From Escherichia phage vB_EcoM_SA91KD: DNA of 53,673 nt. Made by a program: the position numbers and the translations under genes. The stretch lies in the sequence record NC_079183, one strand, 5' to 3'. Under the pieces are notes generated by a model. The model saw only the letters and a program-made list of their open reading frames with translations. It made no database searches and was not told the DNA's origin. Below are positions 10,311 through 53,673 of the stretch, piece after piece (positions within the stretch are counted from its first letter, which is position 1; each line of letters opens with the position of its first letter).

Positions 10311-10569
10311 AGAACTGGCTGACCAACTTAAGGCAGCAAAACGAGAGTCTGCAAATCAATCAGAACGTGTTGCAAAACTGAAAGGGCAAGGCTCAACGTC
10401 CGAAGAAATCCAGTTATTTACAGATAATGTCTGGTTTTCAATGAATCGTGCACAATTTATCGAGATTCAGGAAGAACGTCTTACTGAACTGGAGAAGCGT
10501 GTAGAAACACTTGAGAGCTTGCTTGTAACACTGCAAGAAACTCTGGACCAGGAACTGAAAAATGTCTAA
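10300..10569 (+). CDS. Hypothetical coiled-coil protein (89 aa; start uncertain)
   Basis: Track ORF with GTG start overlapping the upstream stop. Confidence 0.4.
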   Translation: MKVEELADQLKAAKRESANQSERVAKLKGQGSTSEEIQLFTDNVWFSMNRAQFIEIQEERLTELEKRVETLESLLVTLQETLDQELKNV

Positions 10570-10978
10570 CGTTAAGCTGGGCCAACGCTCCCTTGACCGA
10601 CTCAAAGGTGTAAATCCTTCATTGGTGGCAGTTTTCAAGCGTGCATGTGAAACAATGCCGTTTGACGTAACTGTTCTTGAAGGATTGCGCACTTATGAGC
10701 GTCAACAAGAGCTTTTAAAGCAAGGTGCAACCAAAGTTCCAGTTAGCCGACACATGTCAGGCAACGCTTTAGATATTGCACCATATCCAATTGACTGGAA
10801 TGACCTCGAACGATTCAAAGTTTTAGCTCATCATATGTTCAAAGCTGCAAAAGAGCTTGGAATTACCATTCGTTGGGGTGGGAACTGGAGCCGTATTGAT
10901 GAAAATCAGCCGTATCCACCACTTGCACCAGGTAAGAAGAAGCTGATTGATATGCCGCACTTCGAACTTCCAGCATAA
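10562..10978 (+). CDS. Peptidase M15 (L-alanyl-D-glutamate peptidase type, T5-endolysin-like), 138 aa
   Basis: Zinc-site motifs SRHMSGNALDI and DMPHFE; region DIAPYPIDWNDLERF...KELGITIRWGGNW resembles the phage T5 endolysin (recalled from memory). Confidence 0.7.
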   Translation: MSNVKLGQRSLDRLKGVNPSLVAVFKRACETMPFDVTVLEGLRTYERQQELLKQGATKVPVSRHMSGNALDIAPYPIDWNDLERFKVLAHHMFKAAKELGITIRWGGNWSRIDENQPYPPLAPGKKKLIDMPHFELPA

Positions 10979-14528: not shown

Positions 14529-14557
14529 GTCGTTTGACGAATCAGAGCAGTTCTGAA

Positions 14558-14575
14558 ACATTAGTTGGATGTGGA
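14558..14575 (+). promoter_or_regulatory. Promoter-like box (tctgaaACATTAGTTGGATGTGgA)
   Basis: Near-exact consensus about 80 nt upstream of the 14652 gene. Confidence 0.45.
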
Positions 14576-14651: not shown

Positions 14652-14990
14652 ATGGCTAAGATTGTAACCGTAACTCAGTACGAAGCTAACGATGGTTCCC
14701 TGTTCCTGACCGAAGCAGAGTGTAATGCACATGACTTCAAACTGGAAAACGGTGCTAAAATTGAGAAAGCTGCCGAAGCGTACCTGAACACCGTTGGCGC
14801 TATCGACCGTTCTCGCTCCATGCAGAAGAACACCATCGAGCAGTTCCTGGCATTCTACCTGCCGTGGGTTGAAGCTGGTGAGCCGGAAGTTGAGCGTACT
14901 AAGTTCGATACTCCGAAAGAAGCTAAAGTTGCTGACGCAAGTGTTGCCGAAGCTGCCGAAGCTGCTGTTGAAGAAGCTCCGGTATTCTAA
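14652..14990 (+). CDS. Acidic small protein, apparently highly expressed (112 aa)
   Basis: aagg RBS; strongly biased codon choice (ctg, ccg, cgt, ggt, ttc, aac) like the capsid and SSB genes; acidic Ala/Glu-rich C-terminus ending EEAPVF. Confidence 0.6.
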   Translation: MAKIVTVTQYEANDGSLFLTEAECNAHDFKLENGAKIEKAAEAYLNTVGAIDRSRSMQKNTIEQFLAFYLPWVEAGEPEVERTKFDTPKEAKVADASVAEAAEAAVEEAPVF

Positions 14991-15129
14991 GTTGCCGATG
15001 GCAAACTTGAGAGACTAAGCTAAATCGATCTGGCATGCACTGGAAGATTTCCGGTGCTGCCTTGAATCCCATTCCAGAGTGAGTGGGCTTCAATGAGCAT
15101 TCTTGTGATTAGAGTTGGGAGGTAGGCCG

Positions 15130-15336
15130 ATGCCCAAGCTCATGGCCCAGACAAGAGTGTTCATTGAAGTTACTTCAATATGGATTGTCGCCAAGTTGTG
15201 GAAGGACGTGCACACAGATTTAACGAAGAAAAGTAACAGCCTGAGAACTGTGAAAATTTCCCGTTATGTCGTGGGGAAGTGCACCATAACTTGGGTTCTT
15301 CACGTAGATATTACTCAAATATTTGCGGCTCGCTGA
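15130..15336 (+). CDS. Possible small protein (about 68 aa)
   Basis: Strong gggagg RBS 7 nt before ATG; odd composition, could be non-coding. Confidence 0.3.
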   Translation: MPKLMAQTRVFIEVTSIWIVAKLWKDVHTDLTKKSNSLRTVKISRYVVGKCTITWVLHVDITQIFAAR

Positions 15337-15878
15337 ATGTGAGCATCCATATTGAAGTAGTTTTCTGAGTCTTACGACGGGCCTAAACTGCCTGAAGTTA
15401 TTGCGACTGTTTTATTCATTTAAAATAAATGCAAATGATTCTGAAATGCGAGTTGCGGCTTAATTAAATTTAAGTCCTCTCCGTGGTCTTCCAATCCCAC
15501 GTAACCAAATTTGGCGCATTGTGGCTTCGAGATGTGATTAATAAATCGGAGCATTAATTAATTTGTATTCTGCGATGTAATGCAGACTTAAGTCCCTCAG
15601 TGCGCGTAGGGATGTGACAGAGTACAAACTTAATTCATTTAAAGTGAATTGCCCTGAGCATGGAAATAAACTGCTCAAACCGATGGTATCTACAAAGGTA
15701 GATTAAATCAGGTTGCCTGTTGGTACTTGGGTTCAACACCTGCTTGCACTCGCAAAGTAGTGCCTCGTACCTGAGATGAAGTGAGTCGGGACCATCAATC
15801 CCACGTTATGTCAAAACACAGTAGGCGACTCACGGATTCTACAAGCCTCGCAGTTCGGGAAAACCTGCGTTATCAAAA

Positions 15879-15888
15879 CCCCCCCCCC
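15879..15888. repeat. C10 homopolymer tract
   Basis: Read directly, 8 nt upstream of the tRNA-like element. Confidence 0.85.
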
Positions 15889-15895
15889 ATTATTT

Positions 15896-15982
15896 GGACG
15901 AGTAGCTCAGAAGGTCTGCTCCAGAGCTGGTAGAGCAATCTGTTCGACAGATGTGTCGTTGGTTCGAATCCAACCTCGTCCA
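15896..15982 (+). tRNA. tRNA-like element with atypical internal structure (possible pseudo-tRNA or non-canonical tRNA)
   Basis: Canonical 7-bp acceptor stem (GGACGAG / CTCGTCC) and T-arm (GTTGG-TTCGAAT-CCAAC) with discriminator A; the 55 nt between them cannot be folded by eye into standard D and anticodon arms. Anticodon not assignable. Confidence 0.35.
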
Positions 15983-16015
15983 CCCACTTTAATAATTCGC
16001 AATACTGGAGTCCTT

Positions 16016-16156
16016 ATGGATTTTGATGCACTTGATAACTTAGACTTCGGTGCTGCCGAAGAAGCAATTGAAGAACTTAAGAAGAAGCAGGACGAAGAAG
16101 CAATCGTTCCTGGTGAGGGCGATAACGACTGCTCAAGCGGTGCTTGCGCCATCTAA
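16016..16156 (+). CDS. Small acidic peptide with Cys/Ser-rich C-terminus (46 aa)
   Basis: ATG after ggag RBS; acidic N-terminal part then ...CSSGACAI-stop. Confidence 0.35.
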   Translation: MDFDALDNLDFGAAEEAIEELKKKQDEEAIVPGEGDNDCSSGACAI

Positions 16157-16164
16157 GGTGATTT

Positions 16165-16401
16165 ATGCAACAGCTTAAATCAATAATTCTTGGCGTCCTG
16201 ACTGCATTTGGCATTATCATTGCAGTGTTCCTCAAAGGCAAAAGCTCAGGCAAAGCCGAGGAGCGTCAGGAAGCCACAGAGAAGCAACTAGATTCATTAA
16301 AAGAATCTATCGAGATTAAGTCGCATGTTCAGAAAGAAGTGTCTAGCAGTTCTGATAGCAATGTCGATAGTGAGTTGCTCTCAAAGTGGGTTCGTAAGTG
16401 A
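16165..16401 (+). CDS. Membrane protein with N-terminal TM helix and charged helical periplasmic domain; i-spanin-like (78 aa)
   Basis: TM segment IILGVLTAFGIIIAVFL; aaggtg RBS; the next gene overlaps out of frame. Confidence 0.45.
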   Translation: MQQLKSIILGVLTAFGIIIAVFLKGKSSGKAEERQEATEKQLDSLKESIEIKSHVQKEVSSSSDSNVDSELLSKWVRK

Positions 16402-16534
16402 TTATTGCTTAATTGCACAACCAATCTATTTGGATGTTGCAGAAGTGAAAATATTATCACGCGAAACCAAAACACAGATTTTAGTCCACAATGAAACGTG
16501 GGCACAAAAGTGTTCGAAACTTACCCGACAGTGA
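16325..16534 (+). CDS. Predicted lipoprotein overlapping the 3' end of the preceding gene in another frame; o-spanin-like (69 aa)
   Basis: Signal/lipobox-like MFRKKCLAVLIAMSIVSC. The overlapped architecture is typical of Rz/Rz1. Confidence 0.4.
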   Translation: MFRKKCLAVLIAMSIVSCSQSGFVSDYCLIAQPIYLDVAEVKILSRETKTQILVHNETWAQKCSKLTRQ

Positions 16535-17521
16535 GTGAACAAGACGGACGTCTATAACTTCCCACATGGCCTAGCTAGTTGGTGGTGTAAAAGACTGACC
16601 AAGGTGACGACAGCCAAAGTCGAGGGAGTGCGCGACTTTAAATAACGAGACTCTAGCAACTTGTTGCGATGATGGTGTAAGCCCATGCGTTTGGAAGCAG
16701 GACTCCAACTCAAACAAACCTGCAAGTTGCTCTGGGCATAACAATTGAAATTGCTGCCTCGTATTGAACGCGAGAAAGTTCAGGTAGTCACTTCCTAGAA
16801 CAGTGGCCGGGAACACACCTAGACAAAAGTGCTTGAGAACGTTAGCTCTGTCTTGCCAGCATTAATGGCACGTTGGCCGCGTAAAGGCCACAGCGTCTGA
16901 CCAACGTATCGGTCACTAAATTCAATGGATTCGTAGAGTTAATTAAACCTGCACGATGGGATAGGGATGTAGCATCCGAGGCCGACTGTGTAATTGTGAA
17001 CTTCGCGTTCGCCGAATCCGCCAAATCAATGGGCTAGTGCAAATGTCAGTCACTAGAAGATGTGTTGCAAAACGTCTTCCATGATGTGCAAAGTGTCAGT
17101 CACGTGCCCGCCAATTTACCTCCAACAGTTATGCCTCTGTTCAAAAGGCTCAAGAGAGCGTCTGGCATACCGTAGCGATACGGCTTAGTTGCGCTGATTG
17201 TGTTGTGCAGAAAGAAAGTTCAGGCTTTCGTTTGGGTTACTCCTCATCCCGAAGTTAGCTGGATTCAAAATCCAGACTATGTTCCTATACACATGAAATA
17301 TGCAAGTCGAGGGTTCTTAATGTTCAAACATGATGCGAGCATTAAGCGGGTTTATACTTTTCCCCGATGGTCCCCATAAACAAGTCTGATTCACTTGGGC
17401 GGTTCGAATCAAATTTAATAAGTGTCTTGGCCGCAGTGGAAACATCATTTAAGCCAATGTTTTGTAATGTTCGTAATAGTCCACGTCAGGACACTTACTT
17501 AAATTTTAACTGGAGAGAAAC

Positions 17522-17743
17522 ATGAAAACTGCTGAAATTGCCGAAGAGATTTATAAGGCCGTAATAGCCAGCCAAATCACAAGTGAAGTCCTGCACATGG
17601 ATATTGAAGAAGTTCGCAATGCCTTTGGTGGTTTTGCAATCTTGTCAATAGAAGCTGCGGAAGCACTGACAAACACGTACAATCAACGCGAGTATGAAAA
17701 GCGTTCTGTACTAAATGCGTCATTACAGGCGTCATTAAAATAA
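17522..17743 (+). CDS. Hypothetical protein (73 aa)
   Basis: ggagag RBS then ATG; first gene after the non-coding region. Confidence 0.55.
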   Translation: MKTAEIAEEIYKAVIASQITSEVLHMDIEEVRNAFGGFAILSIEAAEALTNTYNQREYEKRSVLNASLQASLK

Positions 17744-22674: not shown

Positions 22675-22946
22675 TGCAAACTGTATATTCTATTTTCGAT
22701 ATGCAGGAATTAGAGCACCATATGTTTGCTGCTGATTCCGAAGTTCCAGCAAAGGACGCCGTAATGGCGTTCCTTGAAAAGATTAAGGACGAGGTGTTCG
22801 CTTCGTCTGACCCACAGTCTCAAGCATTCAACGACGAGACATTCAAAAACATCCAAACTTTAATTTCGGCAACGTCTTCAATTGAAGAGCTGTCCGAAGC
22901 ATTAGTTGGATATGACTTCCGGCTTGCTATGTTGCAAGTCGACTAA
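22674..22946 (+). CDS. Small acidic protein (90 aa)
   Basis: ATG overlaps the polymerase stop; a promoter-like box sits in its 3' end. Confidence 0.5.
   Translation: MQTVYSIFDMQELEHHMFAADSEVPAKDAVMAFLEKIKDEVFASSDPQSQAFNDETFKNIQTLISATSSIEELSEALVGYDFRLAMLQVD
22899..22916 (+). promoter_or_regulatory. Promoter-like box (gCATTAGTTGGATaTGAc) embedded in coding sequence
   Basis: Consensus match about 60 nt upstream of the 22977 gene. Confidence 0.35.
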
Positions 22947-51659: not shown

Positions 51660-52001
51660 ATGGAACGACTATCCATTCAGATGTTTGTGGACCTGATGCA
51701 CCAATATGGCGTATGGCACGGATTATTGGCTGGTCTTACGGCTTTAATTCGTGGGGCATATGAGAGTGAAGGCTTAAGCAAGGCGCTGCTGGATGCGGCG
51801 CTGTGCAGCTTAATCGGCTTGTTTGCCTTTCATGTTGCTGGCACATTTGAAACCTTCACGACTAACGTCACTATGCAGTTAGTATTGGCTATCGTGATTG
51901 GTGTCATCGGTGCAAACCTCATTATTACAACTGTCAGGGAAAGTTTCTCTGGCGCAATCAAACAACTTAATCCTTTGACGTGGTTCAAGAAGGCACGATG
52001 A
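51660..52001 (+). CDS. Holin-like membrane protein (113 aa)
   Basis: Two to three hydrophobic helices, charged C-terminus, immediately upstream of a cell-wall hydrolase. Confidence 0.55.
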   Translation: MERLSIQMFVDLMHQYGVWHGLLAGLTALIRGAYESEGLSKALLDAALCSLIGLFAFHVAGTFETFTTNVTMQLVLAIVIGVIGANLIITTVRESFSGAIKQLNPLTWFKKAR

Positions 52002-52018
52002 AATGATAAGGAACTCGA

Positions 52019-52573
52019 ATGCTATCATTCAAAGTCCTTGCAGTTCTGGCAGCTTTAGTTCACATCAACGCCCCAGCTTCGGTTGGGGCAGTGAATTCTG
52101 CTATTACAGATTTTGCAAGTCATTCTTATTTAAATGGAAGTCTGAAACTATCTTCTTCACAACGCAAAGAGCTAGAATGCTATACTAAAGTTATCTGGTA
52201 TGAAGCTCGCGGAGAAGACAAACATGGAAAGATTCTGGTAGCTAATGTCGTCCGTAATAGAACAGAGTTCGGGAAGCCATTCGCTAACACCGTTTGTGAT
52301 GTTGTCTATCAACGCAATCAATTTGCATGGACACGAGAAGCAAAGAAGAAGAATGCCCAATGGAAGCATGTAGCAAAGATTAATTATGCCACAGAACAAC
52401 AACAAGTTCTGGACACCATTAATGTTGCAATCTCTTTTGTACTATTTAATCAACCCTCTGTCACCAAAGCAACCCACTTTTGTACAGCATCGGAGAAGTG
52501 CAACTTCAAGAATGTTAAAGGTTTGGGTCGTTATGGTGGCCATAAATTCTATGAGTATCTAGGAAATCTGTGA
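52019..52573 (+). CDS. Cell-wall hydrolase, SleB / Hydrolase_2 family, with N-terminal signal sequence (184 aa)
   Basis: Signal-like [24 protein letters not shown]; core [24 protein letters not shown]...[17 protein letters not shown]. Confidence 0.7.
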
Positions 52574-53673
52574 TGGCTTACACTACCTTTTCGCAAACCA
52601 AGAATAACCAACTACTAGAGCCAATGTTCTTTGGTCAGAATGTTAACGTTGCTCGATATGACCAACAGAAGTACAGCATCTTCGAGAAGTTAATCGAGAA
52701 GCAGTTATCTTTCTTTTGGCGACCTGAAGAGGTTGATGTTAGCCAGGACCGAATTGACTATGCTGGTCTTCCTGAATGTGAGAAGCACATCTTCACCAGC
52801 AATTTACGATACCAAATCCTGCTTGACTCCATTCAGGGACGCGGGCCAACTACAGTTTTGCTGCCAATTGTGAGCATTCCTGAACTGGAAACTTGGATTG
52901 AAACTTGGTCATTCTCAGAGACAATTCACTCCCGTTCTTACACGCATATTATTCGTAATATCGTGACAGACCCAAGTGTAATTTTCGATGAAATTGTGGA
53001 GAATGAGCACATTAAAATGCGTGCAATTGGCATATCACAATATTATGATGAGCTTCAACATCTAACTTCCATGTGGCATCTGCATGAAGATAAAGTTTCT
53101 CTTCGTGAGCTTAAGAAGAAGCTATATTTATGCCTCATGTCCATTAATGCACTAGAAGCAATCCGCTTTTATGTCAGCTTTGCTTGCTCATTTGCCTTCG
53201 CTGAACGCAAGTTAATGGAAGGAAATGCCAAGATTATTCGCTTAATTGCTCGTGATGAAGCACTCCATTTGACTGGAACTCAGCACATGCTGAACCTTCT
53301 TGCAAGCGGTGTTGATGACCCAGAAATGGCAGAAATTGCTAAAGAATGCCGCCAAGAATGCCAAGAAATGTTCGAAAATGTGGCCCAACAAGAGAAAGAT
53401 TGGGCTGATTATTTGTTCAAAGATGGCTCCATGATAGGCTTAAATAAGCAAATTCTGTGCGGATATGTGGAATATATTACAAATATTCGTATGCAAGCAG
53501 TTGGATTGGATGCTCCATTCAAAGGTGCTACTAACCCGATTCCTTGGATTAACGCATGGTTGAATTCGGATGCTGTACAAGTTGCTCCACAAGAAACGGA
53601 GATTAGTTCGTACCTTGTCGGGCAGATTGATTCCGAAGTTGACACCAATGCTCTGGGCGGATTTGAGCTTTAA
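52570..53673 (+). CDS. nrdB: Ribonucleotide reductase class Ia small subunit NrdB (367 aa)
   Basis: Long stretches match enterobacterial NrdB as I recall it ([109 protein letters not shown]). ORF ends at the last base of the window. Confidence 0.85.

What the first reader, a model, noticed from the sequence alone, without database searches (positions are those of the whole stretch)
16016..16534. Overlapped membrane-protein / lipoprotein gene pair (spanin-like) isolated from the lysis cassette, preceded by a Cys-tailed acidic peptide
Gene 16165-16401 encodes an N-terminal TM helix plus a charged helical domain. A second ORF (16325-16534) starts inside it in another frame and begins with a lipoprotein-type signal (…LIAMSIVSC). 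This nested architecture is the hallmark of Rz/Rz1 spanins, yet the holin and hydrolase lie about 35 kb away. Just upstream, a 46-aa acidic peptide ends in CSSGACAI, superficially like a leader-plus-core precursor peptide. Both products are shorter than classical spanins, so the assignment is tentative.
Basis: partly seen in the sequence, partly recalled or inferred. Interest (0 to 1): 0.5.

Follow-up and report, generated by a model that had tools for sequence, protein, structure and literature searches.

The report
Known phage spanin pair plus RNR-tail-like peptide
The overlapping membrane-protein and lipoprotein genes are the already catalogued outer-membrane-breaking "spanin" pair of phiEcoM-GJ1-like phages, so that part is ordinary, but the small acidic peptide just upstream belongs to an unannotated phage family whose end looks like the redox tail of ribonucleotide reductase.

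Summary
The window is a complete Carltongylesvirus (phiEcoM-GJ1-like, Chaseviridae) genome.

**Spanin pair.** 16165-16401 (78 aa, N-terminal TMD) and 16325-16534 (69 aa, lipobox IVSC) form an overlapped two-component spanin. Both frames are under selection: 1 of 74 overlap sites varies among 12 relatives, against 14-20% in the flanking coding segments. Both proteins are homologous to i/o-spanin pairs that directly follow the endolysin in phages mEp390, HK639 and AF. They match PHROG "Rz-like spanin" families. Kongari et al. 2018 (SpaninDB) already list the phiEcoM-GJ1 orthologues with identical geometry, and RefSeq annotates them. This part is supported and already known. Separation from the holin and endolysin has a precedent in T4.

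**Upstream peptide.** The 46-aa acidic peptide (16016-16156) is a real gene (18 synonymous against 2 non-synonymous changes). It is not a RiPP precursor and is not tied to spanins. It belongs to an unannotated family of small phage proteins ending in DC(x2-4)C[KA]I. Its last 20 residues align with the C-terminus of E. coli NrdA. Relatives lie next to, or are fused to, glutaredoxin genes in jumbo phages. This phage carries nrdB but no nrdA. A role as a free-standing RNR alpha redox tail is an untested hypothesis.

The parts
16165..16401 (+). i-spanin gene (78 aa). The N-terminal transmembrane segment is residues 6-23 (nt 16180-16233). It is followed by the juxtamembrane motif KGKSSGK, a helical charged periplasmic domain and the conserved C-terminal motif SDSNVDSELLSKWVRK.
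   Evidence: Sequence and hydropathy. Matches phrog_1026 'Rz-like spanin' at 2e-20. It is 30-32% identical end to end to the i-spanins of mEp390 and phage AF, which directly follow the endolysin. Family alignment A4. SpaninDB lists the phiEcoM-GJ1 orthologue as a 78-aa overlapped i-spanin with a predicted coiled coil at residues 26-58.
16325..16534 (+). o-spanin gene (69 aa precursor). Signal peptide residues 1-17, lipobox IVSC (nt 16367-16378), Ser at +2, 52-residue mature part with two further conserved cysteines (C28 at nt 16406-16408, C63 at nt 16511-16513).
   Evidence: Lipobox pattern match. It is the only plus-strand lipobox ORF in the window. Matches phrog_1275 'Rz-like spanin' at 1e-17. 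tblastn finds 100 phage records, including o-spanins in the lysis cassettes of mEp390, HK639 and AF. C18, C28 and C63 are invariant in alignment A3. Outside the overlap there are 13 synonymous and 5 non-synonymous changes in this frame.
16325..16401 (+). 77-nt dual-coding overlap. It encodes the i-spanin C-terminus in one frame and the o-spanin signal peptide and lipobox in the +1 frame.
   Evidence: Only 1 of 74 sites varies among 12 genus members, against 14.5%, 20% and 17.7% in the flanking coding segments. Fisher p = 6e-5.
16016..16156 (+). 46-aa acidic cytoplasmic peptide (net charge -11) ending DNDCSSGACAI. Its stop codon lies inside the Shine-Dalgarno sequence of the i-spanin gene. It is probably functionally unrelated to the spanins.
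   Evidence: Intact in all 44 genus records. Among 12 genus members there are 18 synonymous and 2 non-synonymous changes, with 17 of 20 variable sites at codon position 3. Family of 61 cluster representatives. Its tail aligns to the E. coli NrdA C-terminus.
14556..14575 (+). Nearest upstream match to the phage-RNA-polymerase promoter consensus annotated in phiEcoM-GJ1. The next match is at 22897. This places the peptide and the spanins in the replication-gene transcription unit.
   Evidence: One mismatch to the consensus of the eight promoters annotated in NC_010106. Promoter function is inferred.
51660..52001 (+). Holin, the presumed lysis partner.
   Evidence: phrog_126 holin/anti-holin at 1e-17. 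Sub-threshold match to the lambda holin family TIGR01594.
52019..52573 (+). SleB-like endolysin with an N-terminal signal or SAR-type hydrophobic segment, the presumed lysis partner.
   Evidence: phrog_938 endolysin at 4e-20. Sequence. Annotated 'SAR endolysin' in Mangalitsa and DE15.
52570..53673 (+). Orphan class Ia ribonucleotide reductase beta subunit (nrdB). It is context for the peptide hypothesis only.
   Evidence: 79.8% identical to E. coli NrdB, including the alpha-binding C-terminal tail. tblastn with E. coli NrdA finds no nrdA in the window.

Best explanation
**The gene pair.** Genes 16165-16401 and 16325-16534 encode an overlapped two-component spanin.

- The 78-aa product is anchored in the inner membrane by its N-terminal helix. 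It projects a roughly 55-residue, mostly helical domain into the periplasm.
- The 69-aa product is exported, lipidated at Cys18 and sorted to the inner leaflet of the outer membrane (Ser at +2).
- The two C-terminal regions bind each other and form a bridge across the periplasm. The two conserved o-spanin cysteines probably stabilise the bridge through disulfides.
- The complexes can accumulate harmlessly from the replication phase onward, because they are caged by the peptidoglycan mesh.
- When the holin (51660-52001) triggers and the endolysin (52019-52573) destroys the wall, the complexes collapse and fuse the inner and outer membranes. This is the last step of lysis.

What is shown and what is inferred:
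- Shown here: both genes are real and under selection, the topology signals are present, and both proteins are homologous to cassette-borne spanins.
- Inferred from the lambda and T4 paradigms: complex formation, disulfides, membrane fusion and timing.

**The upstream peptide.** The 46-aa acidic peptide is a separate, co-transcribed gene. It belongs to a small-protein family whose C-terminus copies the dithiol tail of class I RNR alpha subunits. It most likely acts in the cytoplasm with glutaredoxin or thioredoxin and/or host NrdA, not in lysis.
For: - Geometry and signals.
- Dual-frame constraint: the overlap shows 1 of 74 variable sites against 75 of 428 elsewhere, p = 6e-5. The o-spanin-only segment has 13 synonymous and 5 non-synonymous changes.
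- Family membership: phrog_1026 (2e-20) and phrog_1275 (1e-17), both 'Rz-like spanin'.
- Homology: the o-spanin is 31-37% identical and the i-spanin 30-32% identical to pairs that directly follow the endolysin. In mEp390 and HK639 these follow holin-holin-endolysin; in phage AF they follow the endolysin.
- Synteny: the pair is conserved across Chaseviridae genera with varying overlap: 4 nt in 4HA13, 77 nt here, 140 nt in PP101.
- Cysteines: the lipobox Cys and two further Cys are invariant. Zero Cys in the i-spanin plus two in the o-spanin is the commonest pattern in SpaninDB.
- Length: the combined periplasmic length of about 107 residues is inside the published 62-300 range.
- Prior annotation: SpaninDB lists the phiEcoM-GJ1 pair at 14724-14961 and 14884-15094 with a 77-nt overlap. 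RefSeq annotates Mangalitsa gp37 and gp38 as spanins.
- No competitor: there is no other candidate spanin next to the endolysin, which is followed directly by nrdB. There is no other plus-strand lipobox ORF in the genome.
- Precedent: T4 spanins are also unlinked to its holin and endolysin.
Against: - I found no experimental test of this spanin family in the literature held here.
- Neither protein matches a Pfam or NCBIfam spanin model.
- The i-spanin is about half the length of lambda Rz.
- The charge distribution around its TMD does not by itself fix an N-in/C-out topology.
- The o-spanin start has only a weak ribosome-binding site.
- The genes sit among replication genes rather than lysis genes.
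Confidence: 0.85

Rival explanations
1. The lipoprotein, with or without the small membrane protein, is a superinfection-exclusion or receptor-masking factor like T5 Llp or the Cor proteins. It would be expressed early to block incoming phage, and would not be a lysis protein.
For: - The genes lie in the early/replication transcription unit.
- In the relative Mangalitsa a T4 Imm-like superinfection-immunity gene lies about 0.5 kb upstream.
- Small outer-membrane lipoproteins are a known exclusion device (own knowledge).
Against: - Both proteins are homologous to pairs that sit immediately after the endolysin in unrelated phages.
- The obligatory pairing with a TMD protein is conserved across families with variable overlap.
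- The i-spanin C-terminus is the most constrained segment, as expected for a heterotypic contact.
- No other spanin candidate exists in the genome.
Confidence: 0.05
2. The embedded/overlapping ORF 16325-16534 is a chance open frame. Only the 78-aa membrane protein would be a real gene.
For: - A lipobox-type pattern alone occurs as often in shuffled sequence (mean 2.0) as in the window (2).
- Many GenBank records of relatives do not annotate this ORF.
- The Shine-Dalgarno sequence is weak.
Against: - The ORF is intact in all 12 aligned relatives and is at least 94% identical at protein level in the 44 genus records.
- Downstream of the i-spanin stop, 14 of 23 variable sites are at codon position 3 of this frame, with 13 synonymous and 5 non-synonymous changes.
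- The overlap is almost invariant.
- Homologues with lipoboxes occur in 100 phage records across many families.
- Missing o-spanin annotations are a documented gene-caller artefact: 196 of 528 in Kongari et al..
Confidence: 0.02
3. The acidic peptide is a RiPP-type precursor (leader plus Cys-containing core), or alternatively a regulator of the adjacent spanins.
For: - It is small, with an acidic N-terminal part and a Cys-containing C-terminus.
- It lies immediately upstream of the i-spanin in four Chaseviridae lineages, and in some of them the reading frames overlap.
Against: - No maturation, transport or immunity genes are present. A bulk Pfam scan of 46 ORFs found only DUF7279, Peptidase_M15_4 and a zinc ribbon, and the remaining genes are replication and structural.
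- The tail is the most conserved part of the family.
- Family members in other phages lie next to glutaredoxin, RNA polymerase or terminase genes, not spanins.
- Spanin loci in PP101, 4HA13, mEp390, HK639 and AF lack the peptide.
Confidence: 0.04
4. The acidic peptide is a generic small acidic host-takeover protein, for example a DNA mimic or a metal-bridged (CxxC) dimer that inhibits a host nucleic-acid-binding protein. On this reading its likeness to RNR tails is coincidental.
For: - Net charge is -11 in 46 residues.
- Genomic contexts are diverse and mostly in early regions.
- The Cys spacing varies (CX2C, CX3C, CX4C).
- Myduc and SSEM1 carry the peptide but have no nrdB at the syntenic position.
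Against: - The end-anchored match of its last 20 residues to E. coli NrdA was reached by 0 of 200,000 shuffles.
- The family HMM hits the extreme C-terminus of a cyanophage NrdA (...DDDCDSCKI) at 12.8 bits, against a maximum of 6.0 for 2000 shuffled NrdA sequences.
- The gene lies 2-5 nt downstream of glutaredoxin genes in AH04-like phages, and is fused in frame to glutaredoxin in two distinct sequences.
Confidence: 0.3

Closest known systems
phiEcoM-GJ1 overlapped two-component spanin (SpaninDB, Kongari et al. 2018, PMC6139136; RefSeq YP_001595426; Mangalitsa gp37/gp38)
   Same: These are orthologues. The i-spanin is 97% and the o-spanin 98.6% identical to the phiEcoM-GJ1 proteins. The lengths (78 and 69 aa), the 77-nt overlap, the +1 frame and the position between the tRNA and thyX are the same.
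   Different: Nothing of substance. There are a few conservative substitutions in the TMD and linker.
Short spanin pairs of lambdoid phages mEp390 and HK639 and of Pseudomonas phage AF (the BcepNazgul o-spanin family of SpaninDB)
   Same: The i-spanins are the same size class (82-91 aa), with a TMD, a helical domain and a C-terminal D-x-E-L...[WF]-x-R motif. The o-spanins share the lipobox and the C...PI.L...TK.QI.AHN..W...C pattern. Identity is 30-37%.
   Different: Those pairs sit in canonical holin-endolysin-spanin cassettes. Here the pair lies 35 kb from the holin and endolysin, in the replication-gene unit.
Lambda Rz/Rz1 and T4 PseT.3/PseT.2 (experimentally characterised spanins)
   Same: The two-protein topology is the same: a type II inner-membrane protein plus an outer-membrane lipoprotein. 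As in T4, there are no Cys in the i-spanin and two in the o-spanin, and the genes are unlinked to the holin and endolysin.
   Different: There is no detectable sequence similarity and no Pfam hit. The architecture is overlapped, not embedded (lambda) or separated (T4). The i-spanin is about half the length of Rz. The o-spanin is not proline-rich: it has 1 Pro, whereas lambda Rz1 has many (own knowledge).
C-terminal dithiol tail of class I ribonucleotide reductase alpha (E. coli NrdA C754/C759; cyanophage S-CAM7 NrdA), compared with the 46-aa peptide
   Same: Both are acidic, presumably disordered segments ending in a Cys pair followed by exactly two residues. The peptide ends IVPGEGDNDCSSGACAI, and E. 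coli NrdA ends LVPSIQDDGCESGACKI. Relatives of the peptide end DCDGCKI or ECDSCKI, and S-CAM7 NrdA ends DDCDSCKI.
   Different: The peptide is free-standing, or in some phages fused to glutaredoxin, rather than attached to an RNR catalytic barrel. It also carries a conserved N-terminal MDFD..L.F motif that I did not find in the NrdA sequences compared.

Membership tests
Two-component spanin (functional class as defined in Kongari et al. 2018) | The i-spanin has an N-terminal transmembrane domain followed by a periplasmic domain. | tested here: met
   The 19-residue window at residues 7-25 scores 2.4 on the Kyte-Doolittle scale, and 55 charged residues follow. The orientation (N-in) is inferred, not computed decisively.
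Two-component spanin (functional class as defined in Kongari et al. 2018) | The o-spanin has a lipoprotein signal with a lipobox Cys and no inner-membrane retention signal. | tested here: met
   MFRKKCLAVLIAMSIVSC matches a PROSITE PS51257-type pattern, and the +2 residue is Ser. The Cys is invariant in 11 diverse homologues. SignalP and LipoP were not available.
Two-component spanin (functional class as defined in Kongari et al. 2018) | The two genes are adjacent in an embedded, overlapped or separated arrangement. | tested here: met
   Overlapped by 77 nt, with the o-spanin in the +1 frame. Relatives range from a 4-nt to a 140-nt overlap.
Two-component spanin (functional class as defined in Kongari et al. 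2018) | At least one periplasmic cysteine is present for intermolecular disulfides (507 of 528 systems). | tested here: met
   No Cys in the i-spanin. Two conserved Cys (C28, C63) in the mature o-spanin. Disulfide formation itself was not testable.
Two-component spanin (functional class as defined in Kongari et al. 2018) | The combined periplasmic length is sufficient to span the periplasm (observed range 62-300 residues). | tested here: met
   55 + 52 residues, against the range given.
Two-component spanin (functional class as defined in Kongari et al. 2018) | The pair is required for outer-membrane disruption, or complements lambda RzamRz1am. | not testable with these tools
   This needs genetics. 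I found no published test of this family.
PHROG 1026 / PHROG 1275 (short Rz-like spanin families) | A significant full-length match to the family profile. | tested here: met
   2e-20 over residues 1-78 (profile positions 4-84 of 85), and 9.8e-18 over residues 1-67 (profile positions 4-73 of 81).
Lambda Rz / Rz1 sequence families (Pfam) | A match to the Pfam models for lambda-type Rz or Rz1. | tested here: not met
   No spanin-related Pfam hit at E up to 10. Only one relative touches DUF2681 weakly. The pair works like Rz/Rz1 but is not a sequence-family member.
RiPP precursor peptide | Genomic association with maturation, transport or immunity genes, and a leader plus variable core. | tested here: not met
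   No such enzymes were found among the 46 ORFs scanned, nor in the gene annotation of the orthologous phiEcoM-GJ1 genome. The Cys tail is the conserved part.
Class I RNR alpha C-terminal redox tail | An acidic tail with a Cys pair, the last Cys being third from the C-terminus. | tested here: met
Class I RNR alpha C-terminal redox tail | The tail is part of an RNR alpha polypeptide (catalytic ten-stranded barrel). | tested here: not met
   The ORF is a free-standing 46-aa gene. tblastn with E. coli NrdA finds no nrdA in the window. It is therefore at most a mimic or a detached copy, not an NrdA.
Class I RNR alpha C-terminal redox tail | The tail is reduced by glutaredoxin or thioredoxin and reduces the alpha active-site disulfide. 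| not testable with these tools
   Only indirect evidence exists: adjacency or fusion to glutaredoxin genes in jumbo phages.

The most novel reading that the evidence does not exclude
The 46-aa acidic peptide, together with its family of about 60 unannotated small phage proteins, is a free-standing copy of the class I ribonucleotide reductase alpha C-terminal dithiol tail. It would be reduced by glutaredoxin or thioredoxin, to which it is adjacent or fused in some jumbo phages. It would then either deliver electrons in trans to the host NrdA active site or compete with the host tail. Phages that bring only nrdB, as this one does, could in this way reprogramme host dNTP synthesis. In this genus the tail has the E. 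coli-type CX4C spacing (CSSGAC against CESGAC), whereas the other lineages have CX2C or CX3C.
Probability: 0.35. Interest if true: 0.65.

Novelty: already known. Interest (0 to 1): 0.3.

Why it matters
The spanin pair needs no further attention beyond correct annotation. Many GenBank records of this genus still miss the o-spanin, or label these genes 'endolysin' or 'hypothetical'.

The by-product is more useful. A conserved small acidic protein family has no Pfam, PHROG or NCBIfam name. Its end copies the redox tail of ribonucleotide reductase, and in some phages it is linked to glutaredoxin. If it acts on the RNR reduction cycle, it would be a new and very compact way for phages to tune nucleotide supply. 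It would also explain why phages such as this one carry nrdB without nrdA. The peptide is only 46 residues long, so it is directly testable with synthetic peptide, Grx1 or Trx, and E. coli NrdA/NrdB.

Tried and rejected
- **Protein family searches.** Pfam and NCBIfam searches of the three proteins gave nothing meaningful.
- **Structure database.** A PDB sequence search with the peptide gave only chance GroEL hits.
- **nrdB co-occurrence.** I tested whether the peptide co-occurs with nrdB across Chaseviridae. Myduc and SSEM1 have the peptide but no nrdB after the endolysin. That simple prediction failed, although the whole genomes were not scanned.
- **Apparent second glutaredoxin fusion.** A fusion in Klebsiella phage pJN2-26 turned out to be a tblastn over-extension.
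- **Survivor nrdA candidate.** The 721-aa protein downstream of nrdB in Pantoea phage Survivor is not NrdA.
- **Regulatory signals.** A scan of 14900-17600 for sigma-70 promoters and terminators found fewer than chance.
- **RNA families.** Rfam found only the tRNA, plus sub-threshold tmRNA-like hits.
- **Literature.** Searches for the tail motif and for 'nrdB-only' phages gave nothing relevant. The original phiEcoM-GJ1 paper (PMC2223254) is not held.
- **Not attempted.** Structure prediction was not run, because the useful alignments contained sequences that the tool does not accept.
Full report
**What the window is.** The 801 bases around the finding match 44 phage records at 87-98% identity. 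All are phiEcoM-GJ1-like myophages (Chaseviridae, Carltongylesvirus) of Escherichia, Yersinia and Shigella. The window length equals a full genome of this group. All genes lie on the plus strand.

**Check of the observation.** The three ORFs are exactly as described.
- 16016-16156 encodes a 46-aa peptide with net charge -11, ending CSSGACAI.
- 16165-16401 encodes a 78-aa protein. Residues 6-23 are strongly hydrophobic (19-mer Kyte-Doolittle 2.4). The rest is charged and contains no Cys or Pro.
- 16325-16534 encodes a 69-aa protein in the +1 frame, overlapping the previous gene by 77 nt. It starts MFRKKCLAVLIAMSIVSC. That matches a PROSITE-type lipobox pattern, has Ser at +2, and leaves a 52-residue mature part with two more cysteines.
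- The holin (51660-52001, phrog_126) and a SleB-like endolysin with an N-terminal hydrophobic segment (52019-52573, phrog_938) lie 35 kb away. They are followed directly by nrdB, so there is no spanin candidate at the usual place.
- A lipobox pattern by itself is not significant. There are two six-frame matches against a mean of 2.0 in shuffles, but 16325 is the only one on the coding strand.

**Are both overlapping frames real genes?** I aligned the block from 12 genus members, which are 91.5-96.5% identical at the DNA level.
- All three ORFs are intact in every member.
- Variable sites make up 14.5% of the peptide gene, 20% of the i-only segment and 17.7% of the o-only segment. They make up only 1.4% (1 of 74) of the overlap (Fisher p = 6e-5). 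This is the expected signature of two constrained frames.
- Downstream of the overlap, changes fall mainly on codon position 3 of the o-frame, with 13 synonymous and 5 non-synonymous changes.
- The peptide gene shows 18 synonymous and 2 non-synonymous changes.

**What the pair is.**
- Both proteins hit PHROG families named 'Rz-like spanin' over their full lengths (phrog_1026 at 2e-20, phrog_1275 at 1e-17).
- tblastn with the o-spanin finds 100 phage records. Beyond the genus these include o-spanins of the lambdoid phages mEp390 and HK639 and of Pseudomonas phage AF. In those phages the gene pair lies immediately after holin-holin-endolysin or after the endolysin.
- The partner i-spanins there are also short (82-91 aa). 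They align end to end with the window protein at 30-32% identity.
- Alignments of 11 diverse pairs show an invariant lipobox Cys plus two invariant cysteines and a PI.L...TK.QI.AHN..W...C pattern in the o-spanin.
- In the i-spanin they show a TMD, a KG[KR]SSGK juxtamembrane motif and a C-terminal SD..VD.EL...[WF]TR motif. That C-terminal motif is the part encoded in the nearly invariant overlap.
- Within Chaseviridae the pair keeps its position upstream of thyX and the primase-helicase gene. The overlap varies from 4 nt (4HA13) to 140 nt (PP101). This is typical of spanin gene evolution.

**Is it already known?** Yes.
- Kongari et al. 2018 list phiEcoM-GJ1 among overlapped two-component spanins.
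- Their tables give coordinates 14724-14961 and 14884-15094, a 77-nt overlap, the +1 frame, lengths of 78 and 69 aa, periplasmic domains of 55 and 52 residues, a coiled coil at residues 26-58, and an o-spanin family shared with Pectobacterium phage PM1.
- RefSeq annotates phiEcoM-GJ1 gp31 and Mangalitsa gp37 and gp38 as 'Rz-like spanin'.
- The same paper shows that zero Cys in the i-spanin plus two in the o-spanin is the commonest pattern. It also shows that combined periplasmic lengths range from 62 to 300 residues, and that T4 spanins are likewise unlinked to its holin and endolysin.
- I found no experimental test of this particular family.

**Expression context.** Matches to the phage-RNA-polymerase promoter consensus annotated in phiEcoM-GJ1 occur at 14556 and next at 22897. 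The peptide and the spanins are therefore probably transcribed with the replication genes. This fits the spanin model, in which complexes accumulate harmlessly until the wall is degraded (established for lambda, inferred here). The peptide's stop codon lies inside the i-spanin Shine-Dalgarno sequence.

**The acidic peptide: family and contexts.**
- It is conserved in all 44 genus records.
- Homologues of 37-46 aa sit immediately upstream of the i-spanin in Myducvirus, Loessnervirus and an Aeromonas phage. They are absent from the PP101 and 4HA13 loci and from the non-Chaseviridae spanin loci.
- Profile searches find about 45 clusters in the 5.8-billion set, and 61 representatives at E of 1e-3 or better in the exhaustive 1.84-billion set.
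- Almost all are 38-90 aa, carry the module at the C-terminus, and have no Pfam domain or name.
- The consensus is MDFD.L..L.F..L.EAE.RN.ER......EA.....[DE].DC[DE]GCKI-COOH.
- Contexts outside Chaseviridae are a position upstream of a T7-like RNA polymerase, upstream of a terminase, and in Pantoea and Mixta chromosomes.
- In AH04-like jumbo phages the gene lies 2-5 nt downstream of a glutaredoxin gene.
- In Pantoea phage Survivor and in a second, distinct sequence (P0082) the module is fused in frame to the C-terminus of a glutaredoxin.

**The acidic peptide: likeness to the RNR alpha tail.**
- E. coli NrdA ends ...QDDLVPSIQDDGCESGACKI. The window peptide ends ...EEAIVPGEGDNDCSSGACAI. Nine of the last 20 residues are identical, and both segments are C-terminal.
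- None of 200,000 shuffles reaches the end-anchored score. Seven of 20,000 shuffles reach the local score against the whole of NrdA.
- A bona fide cyanophage NrdA ends ...YSDDDCDSCKI. This is the same ending as the CX2C members of the family.
- A family HMM built without the window genus hits that extreme C-terminus at 12.8 bits, against a maximum of 6.0 for 2000 shuffled NrdA sequences.
- Class I RNRs use a disordered C-terminal double-cysteine tail to re-reduce the active site (PMC9669993). From my own knowledge, in E. coli that tail (C754/C759) is the substrate of thioredoxin and glutaredoxin 1.
- The window carries an nrdB that is 80% identical to E. coli NrdB, with the alpha-binding tail preserved, and it has no nrdA.
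- Taken together, this suggests the peptide is a detached RNR alpha tail or a mimic of one.

**Caveats on the peptide hypothesis.**
- The comparison with NrdA was made post hoc.
- The glutaredoxin link comes from essentially one phage lineage.
- Myduc and SSEM1 have the peptide without an nrdB at the syntenic site.
- No biochemical evidence exists. I rate the hypothesis at about 0.35.
- The RiPP idea is rejected. No maturation genes were found, and the tail is the conserved part, not a variable core.
- A role in spanin function is unlikely, because the two modules occur independently of each other.

**Verdict.** The spanin interpretation is supported (confidence 0.85), but it is already catalogued and annotated for the orthologues, so it is ordinary. 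The precursor-peptide interpretation is not supported. The one point of real interest is the unannotated RNR-tail-like peptide family, which deserves a simple biochemical test.

Noticed in passing
window 16016-16156; L029 2965-3102 (AH04); L031 1093-1587 (Survivor); L035-L041: The acidic peptide belongs to an unannotated family of small phage proteins ending in DC(x2-4)C[KA]I. There are 61 cluster representatives. The ending resembles class I RNR alpha C-terminal tails (E. coli NrdA ...DDGCESGACKI, cyanophage S-CAM7 NrdA ...DDDCDSCKI). In AH04-like jumbo phages the gene lies 2-5 nt after a glutaredoxin gene. In Pantoea phage Survivor it is fused to a glutaredoxin.
   Followed up: yes
window 52570-53673: The phage carries an orphan class Ia nrdB and no nrdA. 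The nrdB is 80% identical to E. coli NrdB and keeps the alpha-binding C-terminal tail. The phage beta subunit presumably pairs with host NrdA. Pantoea phage Survivor likewise has nrdB plus a YfaE-like ferredoxin with no nrdA nearby.
   Followed up: partly
window 15895-15986: The only tRNA gene has an 18-nt insertion in the D-arm region. ARAGORN calls it tRNA-Ser(gct), while GenBank records of relatives call it tRNA-Arg, 'may contain an intron'. Its identity is unresolved.
   Followed up: partly
window 14991-15894 and 16535-17521: Two stretches of about 0.9-1 kb without credible plus-strand ORFs flank the peptide and spanin block. They are nevertheless 88-98% conserved among genus members, with mosaic indels. 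Rfam gives only sub-threshold tmRNA-like hits at 15356-15518 (E about 0.1). They may be structured RNAs or recombination and homing sites.
   Followed up: partly
L024 1714-2273 (phage DE15), corresponding to window ~16520: In DE15 an HNH endonuclease gene is inserted exactly at the 3' end of the o-spanin gene, replacing its last residues (...QKCSKR, 66 aa). Several other genus members (2KOFFS, TH28, MLP1, PYps4T) match only to o-spanin residue 65-66. Three of the twelve aligned members end ...NLPDS through a 1-nt deletion. The residues after the last Cys are therefore dispensable.
   Followed up: partly
window 10562-10975: A second peptidoglycan hydrolase gene (Peptidase_M15_4, annotated 'endolysin' in phiEcoM-GJ1 gp21) sits in the early region about 5 kb upstream of the spanins. 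This is in addition to the SleB-like signal/SAR endolysin next to the holin.
   Followed up: no
GenBank records of relatives: The spanin genes are often mis-annotated in this genus. The i-spanin is labelled 'endolysin' or 'L-alanyl-D-glutamate peptidase'. The o-spanin is missing or truncated to an ORF that starts after the i-spanin stop. One member is deposited as a 'Staphylococcus phage' (Pel53) despite having Gram-negative-type spanins.
   Followed up: no
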